NCBI GenBank assembly: GCA_951406725.2
Contig: OX597815.1
Coordinates: forward strand, 158,472,001-158,536,000
Length of the DNA stretch: 64,000 nucleotides
Reading direction: 5' to 3'
Source: Octopus vulgaris
Taxonomy: Eukaryota
In this document: piece by piece, positions 1,000-45,145 of the stretch
Layout of the letters: every line of letters starts with the position of its first letter
Numbering within the stretch: position 1 is the first letter of the stretch
Program-made: the position numbers and the translations under genes
Notes under the pieces: model-generated
Told to the model about the DNA's origin: nothing
The model's database searches: none
Seen by the model: only the letters and a program-made list of their open reading frames with translations

Positions 1000-1900
1000 G
1001 GGCGGGCTGGGATTTTTTGGATTGTTATAAATAGAATGCTTCTGAGGATCTATGTAAGTATGCCTTGTATGTAGACTAATTATGTAACACATCATACGGG
1101 ATATGAAATAATTTTATTAATTAAATATTTAGTAAAGAATTTTTCAGATATTATCTTTCAAGGTACCCATTCGTCATGTCCGGCTGTATAGGGGTATCCG
1201 ACTGGGTTGGGATTTATTTGATTGCTATAAATAAAATGCTTCCGAGGATCTATATAAGTATGCCTTGCATGTAGACTAATTAAGTAACACACCATACAGG
1301 CTATGAAATAATTTTGATAATTAGATATTTAGTAAAGAATTTCTCAGATTTTTTTCTTTCGGCATATCCGTTCATGTCCGGCTGTATAGGGGTACCAGGG
1401 TGGGTTGCAATTTATTTGATTGTAATAAATAGAATGGTTCCGAGGATCTAACTTACTATACGGGCTATGGAGTCATTAATTAATTAAGTCCTTAGTAAAG
1501 AATTTCTCACACATTTTCTTTCCGCGTACCCGTTCGTCATGTCCGGCTGTAGTGGGGTACTTCTTGTGAAGGATATATTGTATAATGGTACCGTGCCTGA
1601 AAACGTATACGGGTTGATATATGAGACATACATACCATAAAGCAATATGCGCTCAAGGATCTATGTAAGTATGGCGTGTGTGTAGACTAATTATATGACA
1701 CACCATACGGTCTATGGAGTAATTAATTAATAGATTAATTAAATATTTAGTAAAGAATTTCTCAAACTTTTTCTTTCAGCGTACCAGTTCGTCATGTCAG
1801 GTTGTATTGGGGTACCCCTTGTGAAGAGTGTATTGTAAAATGATACCGTACCTTAAAACGTATACTGGTTGATACCATATAAAGGATACCATAAAGCAAT
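1000..1900. repeat. Diverged ~200-bp tandem repeat, 4 units
   Basis: Units start with ATTG.TATAA-like sequence at 1021, 1221 and 1419. The core GGATCTA...TAGTAAAGAATTT...TCATGTC(C/A)GG.TGTA.GGGGTA recurs four times, the fourth from ~1657. Confidence 0.85.
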
Positions 1901-1944
1901 GTATAATCTGTTATTAATTGATTTCTGATTAGTTATAAATTAAG

Positions 1945-2152
1945 GTACGAAGCCAACAATGTTAAAGGCGGTGGGGTTAATAAAGTACCAGTCAATACTT
2001 GACTGCTACTATACTTTATCGACCACGGAGGGATGAAAGGCAAGATTGAACTCGGCGGAATTTGAACTCAAACCATAAAGATAAAAAGCCAGAACAAATA
2101 CTGTAAGAGCATTGTTTTCCGCCCCTCCAGCGGTTCTGCTGACTCGTTGCCT
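1945..2152 (-). mobile_element. tRNA-SINE family B, diverged copy
   Basis: Reverse complement of the 15395 copy (TTTATCGAC..GGATGAAAGGCAA...GGCGGAATTTGAACTCA). Confidence 0.7.
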
Positions 2153-2714
2153 TCAGTTCCGTTTAGAAGTCAAGATTTTCCAACACTATATTTGACAAAG
2201 TTTCTCTTTTTTTAATATTCTTTTATGAATACTGTTTGATAAATGTGAGGGTCTACCATTGAAAAGTAGTTGGTTTTGATTAAAATTCCAGTGTTTATAT
2301 AAGTTTCGCATATCTTCGTAATTTCTCTTCCCCATTTCAAGTGGAATGTGTACTTTGGTTTAAAAATGCATAGAAGAACATACATTTAATTTTACTATAG
2401 AATATTTATTGTGTTTATAATCAGCTGATAAACCCAAATACTGATAACCGGGTCGGCTGCTCTAATCCCTGGTTAATACCCAAGAATCCAAAACGCCAGT
2501 GGCTTTAACTTTCAAGAATATTCAGAGCAAGTTTAAGTATGATTACCGGAACAAATATAGATAAGATATGCATTGATTAACCCACAGAGTACTACTACGT
2601 GGTTGCTCGATCTGCTACGAATAACAACCAACTTTTCCTCAAGTCACATCCTACTTTTTATAAAACTAATGGATGCATTTGATAAGAAATGTAGTTTTAG
2701 ATAAACTGTGTTTA

Positions 2715-2854
2715 TCCGTCTACCAAATCCACTCACAAGGCTTTCATCGGCCCGAGGCTATAGTGGAAGACACTTGCCCAAGGTACCACGCAGTGGGAGT
2801 GAACCCGGAACCATGTGGTTCATAAGCAAGCTACTTACCACACAGCCACGCCTG
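2715..2854 (-). mobile_element. tRNA-SINE family A (CORE-like), 5' half
   Basis: Matches the reverse complement of the head of the 7433 and 49418 copies. Confidence 0.85.
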
Positions 2855-3602
2855 GGTCCATATGTAGATGAAATATTCATATATACCCTGCCGATATCTA
2901 CAGTTAAAGAAACAACAGTAAAACAGGATTACTTGTTTAATACACGCTTATGTTGCCCTAAATCTGAACCGATATCTTATGAAAGTAGCCGAAGCGTTGC
3001 GACAGCACAATACATTTTCTCTGTATGTAGCTCTTAATTTAAAAGTATTCGATCTTCGGAATTTCACATCAAAAATTTAAATTTAAAAAGGAAATATTTA
3101 TAACAATAGCAGGAGTGAATACTTATTTCATCGACTGCGAAGGGGACGAAAGTAAAAACGTACGAAATGCTATTAAGTACTCTGTCCGGGGTGTTAACGA
3201 TTCTGCCAGATCGATGCCTAATTTTGAGTGATAATATAATAGTGAAAATGACTTAAACAATTATTCTCTTGAAAAATAAAGCAACGCTAATACATACGCA
3301 CATATATAAACATGTTAATTTATATGCATATATATGCGTATGTGCATGTGAGTTATATATATATAAAGGCAATGGAGAGTATGAATACAGCAAAATCGAT
3401 TAATTTACATAACTGTCGATTACATGAGGCCTACGATCGTTTCAATATCCACCTTCATTCATTTTACAATTAAAAATTGCATTATGGATACAAAAGGTAG
3501 AGATATCTTCAGGGCCGGGAGGGCAACTTGGAAAGAGCAGTCTCTTTCTTTACAAAACCTCATTATTAACACTCGTTGTATGTATGTATATATACATACA
3601 TA

Positions 3603-14112: not shown

Positions 14113-14397
14113 TGACGCATATTTGCCATTTGAATATGGCTAACCACTAAGGGTGGATGCTACTGTAGTTTGTAGCCCCAGGAAGATATCTCCTCCAGCT
14201 GGCTATAGACACACTATCTGTGCCCTATCAGTATAGTGTGTATATAGTGTGTCTATAGCCAGCTGGAGGAGATATCTTCCTGGGGCTACAAACTACAGTA
14301 GCATCCACCCTTAGTGGTTAGCCATATTCAAATGGCAAATATGCGTCACGATGTGTTACCGCTACTGTTTATAACTCACTCTGAGATTTATCATTGT
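14109..14397. repeat. Fold-back element: 109-bp inverted arms, 26-nt loop and unpaired tail, in (TA)n
   Basis: 14109-14217 is the reverse complement of 14244-14352 except AGGA vs GAGA. Confidence 0.9.
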
Positions 14398-27399: not shown

Positions 27400-29426
27400 C
27401 CAACATACCGTAAGTTTGCTAGAAAAGTTTCCTCTTGGAAGATGATGCAAACTGGAACAATATTTTGGAAGAAGCTGCTGTGTCGCATTCTTTATATAAG
27501 ATGATAAAGCTTTTTGCTATCAGTTCCTGTACCCATTCCCCATCTAATTCTCAGCATCTTTGAAAAAACATGCCAGGACAGCATAACAGAAGACACTTCA
27601 TGGAGTACAAAACGTGTAGAAAATAAAACTGACGTGTAGAGTTTTACCTGTGACAAGTACAACCAATCTCTGATTACCATAGAAAGTAGTGTACAATCCA
27701 CGAATCGCAAGGATCATGAACAATGTGGGCTGCCAATTCCTGTACGAACTGCAGCTGCAATTCTCCGTTTAGAGATTCTTTAGGTAACCAGTTAGGACAT
27801 TGAACAAATAAAACAATATTTCCATCAAAATGAATCCAAATTTTCTTCCAGTTTAAAAAAGAATCTAATGCAAATATCAATCAATCGGTGAGATCTGACT
27901 TGGGACGAATACTTTTCTTCGATTATTCTGTTGAAATAGGCAAAACCCTTTTCTCTCAACCCAATTCTGGCAAAAAGTCTGTTCACACAAAGAGATTGCT
28001 ATTGCAGAGACATCATCTGGAATTGCTGCAAATTTACACATCGCAAGCCTGCTTATTCTGCTTTTAAGCTGGCGCTTAATCTTGCACACGATACTCAGGT
28101 CTGCAATATTGGTAAAAGATCTGAACACGAAGAATTTACAAAGCAACCCATGCTGAAAAATATGACAGACTGCATTTGATGCTCTCCCTGTATCCTAAAA
28201 GAACTCAGAGGTAACACTAAAACGTATAGATTTGAAGTCATTCTATGTGTTGATTTCAAACAAACACTGATTGTCATCGCAAAAGTTACACCTACTGATG
28301 CGATGAAAGCATGCCTCAAAGAAACTAATATTGTTAGAGACAAGGGAAGGCTTCATTTTTCGATTTTGTACTGATATGCTAGTTACACCTACTATTAACA
28401 GGGATGTCTCATCAGCCCAGTTTTCAAACGTTTAATTAAAACAATGTTCAGTCATCAGTTAAAACTGTGAGTGGAGTCATCAAAATACATCTTTAAAAAA
28501 TGTGGAACGATTATCAACGCACACCAAGAAATGCTACAAAAAAATCTATCCTTGTCTAGCGGAATTATAGAACCATTAATAGCTTTCTGAACATGCCATC
28601 TTTACTCCCCAAAAGGACACTGATAATATCAACATGCTGTCAACTATACAACAGTGTTTCTACCTTCTTTTAAACTTATTGTTGTTCTACCTTATTATCT
28701 ACAGCTGAAAGTAGGAATGGCTATTTTGTTAGTTCGAAATTTGGATGGACCAAAACCCTAGCGTTAAATATTTAGCTCTCATAACCGTTGCATGTGCCTT
28801 ATTATTGAAACTAGTTTTATATATAGTTATTCTAAGTGAGAAGATGCTGTCATTCCACAAATTTTCGCATCCCATCAACAAGCTGTTTCAGTTCAAGCAT
28901 CGTCAGTTTCCTGTGTCTTTTTCTTTGATCGTCAACATGTATCAAAGACAATCCCTGAGAATTGCTGCAATAAAACTTGACTAGACCATGTTTTTCCTCA
29001 TAATGTGCTCTGTGCTACAAGCTGTCATGATGGACCAAGTATACGAAGTATACATCATTTTACGAAGGCACTGAATCACCAAAGCAAGGAACCTTTACTC
29101 CTCCCAGAGCTCTTGCTGAATAAAACATTTATTATTAGAATTGTTCCTGTTTTATATATATATATAAGTTTAGAAATAACGTAAACCATACAGAGAATAT
29201 TATCTAATGTCACAAATTATCAACAAACACAGTAAGAAAGCCTCATACATTATAGAAACCGGAAAATAATTCTTTAGACATGTCACTGAATTACAAGAAA
29301 ATATATACAAATGTAATTGCATAGAAAAAGAAAATCATTGCATAAAAACATACTAACAATGATTTAAGTTTCAGGAAAACGTTTCTATATATTCGACATC
29401 CGGGTAAAGCCGGGCATCCCTGCTAG
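27400..29426 (+). mobile_element. Degenerate Helitron (RepHel helicase relic with 3' terminus)
   Basis: Broken motifs DDANWNNILEEAA, SSGIAA, DFKQTL...MKACLK, LKVGMAILLVRNLD and FQFKHRQFPV; 3' hairpin CCGGGTAAAGCCGGG followed by CTAG|T at 29423-29427. The 5' limit is uncertain. Confidence 0.85.
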
Positions 29427-37217: not shown

Positions 37218-38107
37218 TATTTTTACTAGTTATAGATTGCATTATGAAGGAAACTACGATTGAAAGCCAAACAGGCATTGAATGGACGGATGCAGAAGCT
37301 CTAGAAGATCTCGACTTTGCAGATGATATAGCGCTACTTTCACAAACATATAGCCAAATGCAAAATAAAACGTCAAAATTAGAAGCAATTGCTGCCAAAC
37401 TGGGATTGAAAGTCAACCGCGACAAATCAAAAATTATGTGCGTTAATGAAGAAAACAGCGAACGTATTAAACTAGAAACTGGTGAACTAGAGGATGTAGC
37501 CGAGTGTACGTATTTAGGTAGTAAGATAACGTTTTCAGGCGGCACCGACGAAGATATTGAGACGAGAATAAGTAAGGCAAGGACCGCTTTTCACCTGTTA
37601 AAAAAAAGTATGGAGTGCAAGTGTAATTTCAATAAAGAACAAAATAAGAATTTTTAACGCTAACGTAAAAGCGGTGTTATTGTTTGGGGCTGAGACATGG
37701 CGAACAACAGTTAAATTAAATAAGCAAATACAATCATTCATCAACAGATGCTTGCGTAGTATACTTAAAATTAGATGTCTCGAATACATAAGCAATATGG
37801 AGCTATGGCAAAGAACAAATCAAGTTTCGATTAGGGAGCAAATATTTAAGAAAATGTGGAAGTGGATTGGTAGCACAATTAGAAAAGACACACCAAATGT
37901 AGCGAAAAGTGCCTTACAGTGGAATCCGGATGGATACAGAAAGAAAGGTAGGCCTAAGAACTCGTGGCGGAGATCAACACAAAAGGAACTAGAGAAAGGG
38001 GGACATTCATGGCAGAGTATAAGTACTGAAGTGAAAAATTATGCGACATGGAATTCATTTATAAGTGGCCTATACCCCGTGCTGGAGGGTTAAAGACAAA
38101 AAAAAAA
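37218..38107 (+). mobile_element. 5'-truncated RTE-clade LINE with frameshift
   Basis: LEDLDFADDIALLS, YLGSKI, LLFGAETW, WKWIG and ALQWNPDGYRKKGRPKNSWRR; frameshift in the A-run near 37600; A-tail; probable TSD TCAGTAG (37211-37217 and 38108-38114). Confidence 0.92.
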
Positions 38108-42600: not shown

Positions 42601-42909
42601 CTAAACACTTTCTGAAAGGTTTATTCTACTATTTAAAACTAGACTCATTGTCTTATCATTCATATATTTTCGCATTTTTTTATCTACTTCAGTATTTATT
42701 TATTTATTTGATCATTGTTATTATTCCAATATATATTAATATACATTCATGCAAATGATGGCTCTAAAGAAAAGATGTTTGTATATCTAAATCATGAATT
42801 ATTTGTTTGTTTGCTTTCTAAACTATTTAAAATATTAGCAAATATAGATATACTCAAAATACAAATAAATATAAAGGCGAATATATCGAAAAATAAAGTT
42901 CTCTATCTC

Positions 42910-43707
42910 CATAATAACACAGGCTTTCTATATAGCGCATTAAAGAATAGTGGATTCTCGGAGAAGATCCAGTTCAACCAGCTTAATGCTAATAATAATG
43001 CTGCACGAAGAACTAGGACTAGGAAAGTTTTGTGGTTCAACCCGGCTTTCAATTTGGCCGTAAAGACTAATATAGGTAAGGAATTTTTGAGATTAGTCTC
43101 TAAGCATTTTAGGCAGGGTCATAAATTCTACAGAATATTTAATAGAAGAACCCTGAAGGTTAGCTATTCTTGTTGCAGAAATTTCGCCTCTTACATTAGC
43201 CAACATAATAGGAAGCTAATTGAGATTAGACATGGTGCCGAGCCCATTAAGAAATGTAATTTCAAAAACGAAAGCTCCTGTCCGTTAGAAGGGAAATGTC
43301 TAGTGAAAGGAGTAGTTTATAGAGCCAAGGTGCAAGTGGAAGGCTCATCGGAATACAAGACATACACAGGGGCTTCAGAAAATTCATTTAAAACAAGATT
43401 TTATTCTCATAAGAATTCTTTTAAATACCCAGAGAATAGAAAGAAAACCAGCCTAGCAAAATATGTCTGGGAACTAAAAGAAAAGGAAGCCCCACCTTTC
43501 AACGTGACATGGAGCATTCTGGACAGGGCGGCACCATACAGGCATGGAGCTTACAAATATAATTTCAAGTGCAGGCTTTGCTTATTAGAAAAAATGCATA
43601 TATTATTCAAAGACAATAATTCTTTGAATCAAAGAAGTGAATTAATGAACTTATGTAGGCACAAGGCTAAATTTAAAATGTCGAATATAAATATACCATA
43701 TGGATAG
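42910..43707 (+). CDS. Penelope-like retroelement C-terminus with GIY-YIG endonuclease (Naiad-like), 5'-truncated, RT absent
   Basis: RKVLWFNPAF, IFNRRTLKVSYSC, CPLEGKC, GVVY...YTG, FKTRFYSHKNSF, CRLCLLEK and LNQRSEL..LCRH in one uninterrupted frame. The first ~65 aa of the 42715 ORF look like non-homologous AT-rich flank. Clade assignment is from motif recollection. Confidence 0.9.
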   Translation, partial: HNNTGFLYSALKNSGFSEKIQFNQLNANNNAARRTRTRKVLWFNPAFNLAVKTNIGKEFLRLVSKHFRQGHKFYRIFNRRTLKVSYSCCRNFASYISQHNRKLIEIRHGAEPIKKCNFKNESSCPLEGKCLVKGVVYRAKVQVEGSSEYKTYTGASENSFKTRFYSHKNSFKYPENRKKTSLAKYVWELKEKEAPPFNVTWSILDRAAPYRHGAYKYNFKCRLCLLEKMHILFKDNNSLNQRSELMNLCRHKAKFKMSNINIPYG

Positions 43708-44710
43708 AGTATATATTTTGTATTTTGATTTTTTGATTTTGATTTTGACTCTTGAGCGCTACAACGGACCTATAGCAAAGTCTTATTGTTTCTACATATA
43801 TATTAGGAAAAACCTACAAACTTTGTTTTCATGTTATTGTATTGCATAAGATTACCTTGATTATTTATATTACCTTGATTATTTATAAATGACCCAAAAT
43901 AGGATGTTATATTTTATTTTATAGGTCTTTCGTATATATTTTTATTAATGCACCCATTTTTTAAAAGCAATGTTTTTTTATAAAAAAAGCAATGTTGTCA
44001 AATTTAGAATGTTTATATAAGTTTGTGTACAGCAAAGCATATGTATTTGTAAGCATGCGCATCTGTGTATGTGTGAGTGAAAGTATGCTTGTGCTTAAGC
44101 ACACATATACACGACGGTATGTATATGTATCAATTCAAACTTGTGTATGTATACAGGCCTCTATAGATGCCAAATAACATCGCTACAATTTTTTTCCCCA
44201 CCCCTCCTCCGTTCCTTTTTCTCTCTTTCCCTTTCTTTCGTTCCCCCTCCTTGCTCAGTATATGAGAATTGCTACATAGATGAATTTTAGCTTGCGTGCG
44301 AGACGGTTTGCGTGAATATATGTACACATGCTTTTATGTGTATAATTTAGATTCATATTCATACGTCTGTATATGTATGTATGGCGTTTACGCGCATCCT
44401 TTTGTGTATGTTGATATATATATGTGGATTTTAATATAAATATGTATTGCAGTATTTATAACAGGTTTAATTTCTATGCATTAATTTGTACTGTCTTCAT
44501 TAACGGCAACAGGTTTTTTCCTCGGTATTTTCCTCGGATTTTATAATTTTTATAAGTTTTTATATATATATACATATATTTTTGACCTTTTTGTTTATCG
44601 CTCGAAGATTGACCGTTTTTTTCTAAAGGGCCAATCAAACAAGTCCATTTCTTTTTAAAGGTGTAGCGTTTGTAAGAGTATAAATTGAATTAATATATAT
44701 GTTCCATTCT

Positions 44711-44764
44711 AGCAAAAACTGTCTGATGAACGGCAACGAGAAACTCAGAGTAACAGATTTTGTT
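44711..44764 (+). ncRNA. Type I hammerhead ribozyme in the PLE 3' region
   Basis: Stem I AGCAAAA-A-CUGU / ACAG-A-UUUUGUU; CUGAUGA at 44723-44729; stem II A-CG-GCAA-CG-A; GAAA at 44740-44743; stem III CUC-A-GAG; GUA cleavage triplet with cut after 44752. Confidence 0.8.
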
Positions 44765-44789
44765 GATTTTTCTGCTGCTTAAAATAAAG

Positions 44790-45035
44790 TATATATATAT
44801 ATATATATATATATACATACATATGTATATATATACACACATATGTATGTATGTATATATACATACATATGTATGTATGTATATATATATATACATATGT
44901 ATGTATGTATATATATATATACATATGTATGTATGTATATATATATACATATGTATGTATGTATATATATATACATATGTATGTATGTATATATATATAC
45001 ATATGTATGTATGTATATATATATACATATGTATG

Positions 45036-45074
<39 letters not shown>

Positions 45075-45089
45075 ATATATATATATATG

Positions 45090-45145
<56 letters not shown>
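44790..45145. repeat. (TA)n with ~24-bp higher-order (TA)n-CATATGTATGTATG units
   Basis: Directly visible. Confidence 0.9.

What the first reader, a model, noticed from the sequence alone, without database searches (positions are those of the whole stretch)
42910..44790. Open Naiad-like GIY-YIG ORF followed by a well-formed hammerhead ending at (TA)n
Seen: about 265 uninterrupted codons of PLE endonuclease with CxxCxxE and CRH motifs, ~1 kb of 3' region, then a same-strand type I hammerhead. It has a 12-position stem I with one mismatch, a GCAA tetraloop on a 2-bp stem II closed by A-A, CUC-A-GAG stem III and a GUA site, about 25 nt before a long TA tract. This is the best ribozyme candidate here and ties the motif class to a coding PLE. 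The open frame suggests a young family.
Basis: partly seen in the sequence, partly recalled or inferred. Interest (0 to 1): 0.75.

Follow-up and report, generated by a model that had tools for sequence, protein, structure and literature searches.

The report
Truncated Hydra-clade Penelope retrotransposon with hammerhead
This is a clipped copy of a young, abundant jumping gene of a known kind (Hydra-type Penelope, not Naiad) that ends in its usual self-cutting RNA motif, predicted to cut only as a pair; the one oddity is a single base change, seen in two-thirds of the copies checked, that appears to arise again and again as new copies are made and removes a nearly invariant cysteine.

Summary
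The ORF, hammerhead and (TA)n end are real; the Naiad label is wrong. Window 42932-44789 is a 5'-truncated copy of a 3,356-bp Penelope-like element whose full copies encode 711 aa: telomerase-like RT, then a C-terminal GIY-YIG nuclease, with the RWK, DKT, CxCx5C, CxxC and CxH motifs of the Hydra clade (Craig 2021), whose members are already known to carry hammerheads and to target (TA)n, including one in Octopus. The family is young: 53 of 63 best hits are intact ORFs, and 3,754 exact ribozyme cores exist. The hammerhead folds inactive as a monomer and into a double hammerhead as a dimer (predicted); cleavage is untested, and copy ends are not concentrated at the cut site. The scan has noted this system before on other DNA of this genome. 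New here: base 43262 (Cys564 to Phe; Cys in 119 of 120 homologs) is T in 67 of 100 listed copies, on all 7 larger haplotypes, unlinked to the copy tree, so it likely recurs at insertion; cause unknown.

The parts
42932..44789 (+). 5'-truncated Hydra-clade PLE copy (unit positions 1500-3356 of a 3,356-bp element), single arm, short 3' end (no tail)
   Evidence: 99.1% to full-length unit of L031; family match starts at 42932 in all 29 loci
42934..43707 (+). C-terminal 257 codons of the 711-aa RT-EN ORF plus stop (end of RT thumb region, linker, GIY-YIG EN)
   Evidence: one amino-acid difference from L031 ORF; EN model of L031 residues matches I-TevI catalytic domain, Z 8.9, rmsd 2.3, 89 aligned
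43255..43281 (+). Hydra linker motif CxCx5C, here CNFKNESSC
   Evidence: Cys562, 564, 570, 576 in 120, 119, 120, 120 of 120 homologs
43262..43262 (+). recurrent G>T site (TGC>TTC, Cys564Phe); this copy has T
43309..43398 (+). GIY-YIG core (GVVY, YTG, catalytic-type Arg609); no Cys between the two motifs
43570..43662 (+). CxxC-xx-E, N and CxH motifs
   Evidence: Hydra features in PMC8557442 section 11
43708..44710 (+). 3' untranslated region (about 1.0 kb; forms the pseudo-LTR in tandem copies)
44711..44764 (+). minimal type I hammerhead; predicted cut after 44752
44783..44789 (+). AATAAAG, the short 3' end of the family; the long end adds a 72-nt tail absent here
44790..45145 (.). (TA)n-rich microsatellite target
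   Evidence: 141 of 154 distinct family 3' ends run straight into TA, 6 more read into a tandem unit
42712..42931 (+). unique flank, not element; happens to be in frame; ends in CTAT before the ATA junction
   Evidence: (no match to the family profile)

Best explanation
This is a 5'-truncated, RT-less copy of a young Hydra-clade Penelope-like retrotransposon that sits at the edge of a TA microsatellite, likely pasted there by target-primed reverse transcription, and its hammerhead is the family's standard pseudo-LTR ribozyme, predicted to cut only as a dimer or with protein help. Shown: full copies are 3,356-bp units in partial tandems with a hammerhead at each junction and a 711-aa RT plus C-terminal GIY-YIG ORF; ends run into (TA)n at one of two positions 72 nt apart; inverted two-armed insertions carry the tail on exactly one arm. 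Inferred: a read-through RNA from a tandem source is copied by the element's protein after it nicks (TA)n, starting at either of two internal sites, and copying usually stops early (here after 1,858 nt). Inferred: uncut RNA is the main template, so the ribozyme trims precursor RNA or is dispensable for insertion. Inferred: G at 43262 is converted to T in about half or more of insertion events, before the two arms diverge in most cases, which would leave most new copies with a damaged linker zinc site.
For: Full-length ORFs and tandems; 53 of the 63 best protein hits span residues 1-711 without a stop; 1,074 homologs at E<=1e-20 with the Hydra motifs conserved in the 120 listed; RT model (pLDDT 93.7) hits TERT first, E 1e-9; EN model hits four GIY-YIG-type nucleases first. 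Hydra definition, an Octopus member and a near-identical stem I/III hammerhead (Hydra-2_aMil) in PMC8557442. Monomer MFE (-10.9) pairs the core with stem III, active monomer -6.2; two-copy MFE is exactly the double hammerhead, -24.0 against -21.8 for two monomers. Tail on one arm in 24 of 24 inverted insertions with both ends in view. Junctions within 2 nt of the cut: about 79 (18 of 30 sampled from 132 hits) against about 38 at a control site 9 nt upstream (22 of 30 from 52), beside 3,754 copies with the core intact. In PMC11167929 a PLE hammerhead needed protein and was not needed for insertion. Recurrence of G>T: 26 changes on the tree of 94 insertions, shuffled mean 27.3, other 41 sites 1-6; both alleles on 7 of 7 haplotypes with 5 or more insertions; 5 of 32 inverted pairs differ there against 0.14% per site elsewhere; T in 15 of 29 arms with no private change; A or C only 5 times against 404 G/T; T also seen in 3 of 4 other runs laid.
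Against: No cleavage, RNA end or expression was measured. Stem II has only 2 pairs and no 10.1-11.1 pair; related hammerheads in this genome show conservation but no covariation (1 cell with a two-sided change, 404 of 500 shuffles as high), and 2,681 sister copies carry U4C, so activity may be weak or lost. The roughly twofold excess of junctions at the cut site could be a trace of cleavage. The unit (3,356 bp) is longer than the 'generally <3 kb' of Hydra, and no tree with reference Hydra sequences was built. For the G>T site: T rises with age (35 of 68 arms with 0-1 private changes, 46 of 58 with 2 or more, p=0.002), which fits re-mobilised T copies or later change; the copy tree is star-like within subfamilies, so inheritance is hard to see; direction rests on homolog conservation; 29 of the loci were picked by likeness to the window.
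Confidence: 0.85

Rival explanations
1. The hammerhead is an active, required processing step: it cuts tandem transcripts into unit-length RNAs that are the templates.
For: Canonical core in the youngest subfamily; double-hammerhead MFE; about twofold more junctions at the cut site than at one control; variation among relatives falls mostly at positions 7, loop 2, 11.1 and the centre of loop 3; model proposed in PMC4209133.
Against: Only about 2% as many junctions at the cut as intact cores; tandem copies read through the ribozyme; fold-back microhomology explains 7 of the 18 junctions; U4C lineages reached thousands of copies; PAc mutants still insert.
Confidence: 0.25
2. The hammerhead is a decayed passenger in this lineage and no longer cuts.
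For: 2-bp stem II with A-A closure; inactive monomer fold; U4C in 2,681 sister copies; no covariation.
Against: Core, stem I and palindromic stem III are conserved across subfamilies and resemble published Hydra hammerheads, several of which have a U-U at 10.1/11.1; the youngest subfamily has the canonical U4.
Confidence: 0.2
3. Phe564 is a tolerated or trans-mobilised allele inherited from a few source copies, not a change made at each insertion.
For: 27 of 32 inverted pairs agree at the site; T share differs somewhat between haplotypes (p=0.07) and rises with age.
Against: Both alleles on every larger haplotype across about 3% divergence; label no more clustered than shuffled (243 of 1000 shuffles as low); 3 pairs differ at this site and at no more than one other ORF site that is private. 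Inheritance may add to recurrence but cannot replace it.
Confidence: 0.2
4. It is a Naiad element.
For: (TA)n target and a Cys-rich motif upstream of GIY-YIG are shared with Naiads.
Against: EN is C-terminal, DKT not DKA, no CCHH cysteines, hammerhead present.
Confidence: 0.01

Closest known systems
Hydra clade of C-terminal EN+ Penelope-like elements, incl. Hydra-1_Obim (Craig et al. 2021, PMC8557442; read: part 2 of 10 of the text, section 11, passages, supplement part 2 and passages)
   Same: RT then GIY-YIG; RWK, DKT, CxCx5C, CxxC/CxH, no CCHH; hammerhead near the 3' end; (TA)n target; partial tandems, inverted arms, tail on one end. By eye the RT matches the Hydra rows printed.
   Different: A different family from Hydra-1_Obim (different hammerhead, 3,356 vs 2,507 bp); 1-kb 3' UTR; 72-nt tail (30-40 bp described for PLEs); 2-bp stem II, shorter than the 3-7 bp listed for Hydra; clear pseudo-LTR tandems; recurrent Cys564Phe.
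Minimal PLE hammerheads (Cervera and de la Pena 2014, PMC4209133; read parts 1-2 of 4)
   Same: Type I, palindromic unstable stem III, dimer architecture, in the pseudo-LTR, mostly found as single motifs on truncated copies.
   Different: Long stem I, very short stem II, no G10.1-C11.1 pair; thousands of identical copies.
PAc Poseidon element (Frangieh et al. 2024, PMC11167929; read parts 1-2 of 4)
   Same: Two 3' ends defining a tail, AT-rich targets, hammerhead at the pLTR-ORF junction.
   Different: Other clade; here the ribozyme and tail lie upstream of the start codon rather than inside the ORF.
Naiad PLEs (PMC8557442)
   Same: (TA)n preference, Cys motif before the EN core.
   Different: Opposite domain order, DKA, CCHH present, no canonical hammerhead.
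Animal non-LTR retrozymes (PMC7229834, passages; bioRxiv 10.64898/2026.07.22.740005, part 1 of 5)
   Same: Type I hammerhead of PLE origin.
   Different: This copy is coding-derived and single, not a short non-coding tandem repeat.

Membership tests
Hydra-clade PLE | single ORF, RT then C-terminal GIY-YIG EN | tested here: met
Hydra-clade PLE | RWK motif | tested here: met
   residues 37-39
Hydra-clade PLE | DKT instead of DKG | tested here: met
   residues 113-115
Hydra-clade PLE | CCHH cysteines absent between GIY and YIG | tested here: met
   no Cys between GVVY 580-583 and YTG 598-600
Hydra-clade PLE | CxCx5C linker | tested here: met
   CNCKNESSC in L031 and 33 of 100 listed copies; Phe at the second Cys in the window copy and 67 of 100
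Hydra-clade PLE | CxxC and CxH either side of E and N | tested here: met
   residues 667-673, 686-697
Hydra-clade PLE | hammerhead near 3' end and (TA)n insertion | tested here: met
Hydra-clade PLE | no IFD in RT | tested here: inconclusive
   only compared by eye with supplement rows
Hydra-clade PLE | generally under 3 kb (descriptive) | tested here: not met
   unit 3,356 bp because of a 1-kb 3' UTR; a tendency in the paper, not a diagnostic
Hydra-clade PLE | placement in the RT phylogeny | not tested
Naiad | N-terminal EN | tested here: not met
Naiad | DKA motif; no canonical hammerhead | tested here: not met
Penelope/Poseidon, Neptune, Nematis | CCHH in EN and DKG | tested here: not met
Type I hammerhead ribozyme | CUGANGA, GAAA, NUH core with three stems | tested here: met
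   stem II 2 bp, 10.1-11.1 unpaired
Type I hammerhead ribozyme | covariation of stems | tested here: inconclusive
   19 close relatives: 86.7% paired, no excess over shuffles
Type I hammerhead ribozyme | self-cleavage | not testable with these tools
   needs in vitro assay or end-mapping
Non-LTR retrozyme | short non-coding tandem units each with a hammerhead | tested here: not met
   one motif in the window, attached to a coding element

The most novel reading that the evidence does not exclude
A site-specific RNA mark or edit (host-made or self-imposed) at one guanine makes the element's RT write T in half or more of new copies, turning a nearly invariant zinc-finger cysteine into phenylalanine: a built-in brake that disarms daughter copies of an active retrotransposon, recorded in hundreds of genomic copies.
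Probability: 0.15. Interest if true: 0.8.

Novelty: new member of a known kind. Interest (0 to 1): 0.38.

Why it matters
The finding itself is ordinary: Hydra PLEs with hammerheads are published, one from Octopus. Two things have value. The family is a clean, recently active Hydra element with dozens of intact ORFs and thousands of near-identical ends, so it makes two open PLE questions testable: what the hammerhead does and how two-armed insertions form. And the recurrent G>T at a nearly invariant cysteine is unexplained; whether it is an RT hotspot, an RNA mark or tolerance of the linker loss, it bears on copy-number control and on the untested idea that this linker directs (TA)n targeting.

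Tried and rejected
Rfam found no hammerhead; Pfam found no RT or GIY-YIG in the element and GIY-YIG in 1 of 10 homologs; PDB sequence search empty; Foldseek on the EN model had no hit at E<=0.001, the wide search did. No RNA holder listed; contigs of 7 guessed-RNA runs cover the unit and cross the cut site but cannot show ends; no splice joint near the CTAAC...AG in the 5' UTR was listed; two single contigs with adapter-like loose ends (adapter identity recalled) lay at L031 4220 and 4282, not at the cut (4245). The in-frame flank 42712-42931 is not an older element; an open 73 codons has chance 0.007 in shuffles, and I leave it as chance. Second loose core at 28877-28906 lacks stems I and II. 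For the G>T site: no stop hotspot there (3 hits); no stable local RNA structure; only 9-nt repeats or a 5-bp hairpin could template it; assembly error is unlikely as arms agree and other runs show both letters; general recombination is unlikely as other mid-frequency sites are tree-like. Searches were superseded: one search counted overlapping loci twice; one search removed duplicates by coordinate. Literature: searches found no report of such a hotspot in PLEs or of this family; most subscription papers are not searched, and only parts of the Craig supplement were read.

Full report
Observation. The described features are at the stated places. The frame is open from 42712 to 43707. A genome search with 42900-43710 gave 1,164 candidates, 40 scored; the full-length hits all begin at window 42932, and the 29 fetched copies continue upstream with shared sequence that the window lacks. 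So the element part is 42932-44789, with 257 codons. The flank is unique and unrelated to the family profile.

What it is. Four of ten larger loci hold a 727-codon frame (711 aa from Met) inside a 3,356-bp unit with a hammerhead at each tandem junction. 53 of the 63 best protein hits are complete and stop-free. The model of the protein hits telomerase RT first, and the last 163 residues match I-TevI, T4 EndoII and UvrC GIY-YIG domains (Z 8.9, 6.8, 5.9). Order is RT then EN. RWK, DKT, CxCx5C, CxxC before E, CxH after N and the lack of CCHH cysteines are the features that define the Hydra clade in PMC8557442 section 11 and hold in nearly all of 120 listed homologs. That paper lists Hydra-1_Obim from Octopus and a table of Hydra hammerheads, one with the same CUGU/ACAG stem I and ACUC-N-GAGU stem III. 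Naiads have the opposite order and no canonical hammerhead. The host looks octopus-like; that is inference from the repeats and from earlier notes.

Anatomy of insertions. Of 154 distinct 3' ends, 85 stop at AATAAAG and 56 after a further 72-nt tail, both followed by TA; 6 read into a tandem unit; 7 are irregular. Among the first 100 cores listed on contig C1 there are 32 back-to-back pairs, 14 with 45 nt or less between the cores; all 14 have the tail, whole or clipped, on one arm only, as do 24 of 24 longer inverted insertions. A tail at one end is described in PMC8557442, and two RT start sites that define it in PMC11167929. The window copy is a single arm with the short end and a 3-nt ATA overlap at its 5' junction. 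Arms share 44 private changes and differ at 70 over 54,527 sites; one insertion (L033) has arms of different haplotype, so some arms are copied separately.

The ribozyme. As a monomer the core pairs with stem III (MFE -10.9; active form -6.2). Two copies fold by MFE into exactly the double hammerhead (-24.0 vs -21.8), the architecture reported for metazoan PLE hammerheads, which cut weakly in vitro (PMC4209133). Nineteen relatives from this genome keep the stems but show no covariation, and 2,681 sister copies have U4C. If cut RNA were the usual template, copies should start at 44753. About 79 junctions lie within 2 nt of it, against about 38 at a control site and 3,754 intact cores; 7 of the 18 sampled are fold-backs with microhomology. 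So uncut RNA is likely the main template, as for PAc; a small trace of cleavage is not excluded. Contigs of other runs cannot show ends.

The unexpected site. The only amino-acid difference between the window copy and L031 is Cys564Phe, G>T at 43262; Cys is in 119 of 120 homologs. Of 404 copies with the 30-mer, 67 of the first 100 listed have T; A or C occur 5 times. In 135 distinct arms from 101 insertions both letters occur on all 7 haplotypes with 5 or more insertions, and the site is incompatible with 26 of 44 other sites. On a tree of 94 insertions (7 left out: mixed at the site, or too short) it needs 26 changes, like shuffled labels (mean 27.3), while the 41 other sites need 1-6. Inverted arms differ there in 5 of 32 pairs, a hundred times the 0.14% background but fewer than independent draws predict (p=0.0004). 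T is in 15 of 29 arms with no private change, and its share rises with age. T also appears in 3 of 4 other runs laid. The simplest reading is a change made at or just before reverse transcription in half or more of events and usually passed to both arms, perhaps with some re-mobilisation of T copies. An RT slippage hotspot at UUG, a modified base misread by RT (recalled idea; no stop signature) or editing are all untested.

Comparison and verdict. Member of the Hydra clade by every motif tested, phylogeny not run; a new family in it. Earlier notes of this scan describe the same system on other DNA of this genome; none matched this sequence or the cysteine change. Literature searches gave no report of the hotspot. 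New member of a known kind; interest 0.38, mostly for the recurrent site.

Noticed in passing
window 43262; L024, L033, L128, L135, L139: Recurrent G>T (Cys564Phe) unlinked to the copy tree; these five insertions have arms that differ at the site.
   Followed up: yes
L041-L054: Tiny head-to-head insertions of two 3' ends; 6 of 14 fold back at the CTAG 12 nt upstream of the core; one arm tailed, the other not.
   Followed up: partly
L093-L118: Older sister subfamilies share the 72-nt tail (7,408 exact tail heads) and many have a CCGA core (U4C; 2,681 copies) with an A-U pair closing stem II.
   Followed up: partly
L031 4274-4400: AATAAA just before the short end, U-rich tail, then CTAAC and AG before the start codon: possible poly(A) signal and 3' splice site; no joint seen in contigs.
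   Followed up: partly
window 42908-42934: Flank shares TCCATAAT with the element in register 16 nt upstream of the junction, which may record annealing of the cDNA end; flank frame is open for 73 codons with an ATG at 42775.
   Followed up: partly
L032 80-1525 (minus strand); L079 about 1929-2351: Other, distant Hydra-like EN fragments (32-36% identity); in L032 one lies directly beside this family's insertion and has a long low-complexity linker.
   Followed up: no
L089, L090: Both arms carry the same internal deletion joining mid-ORF CTAGCAAA to the first base after the predicted cut site.
   Followed up: no
window 14151-14310: Near-perfect 160-nt palindrome, probably a small fold-back insertion.
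   Followed up: no
window 37602-38093: 163-aa frame that resembles the C-terminus of an RTE-type LINE (recalled, not tested).
   Followed up: no
G000:C30:3967318-3988567: Five evenly spaced family 3' ends with the same junction, a local tandem duplication.
   Followed up: no
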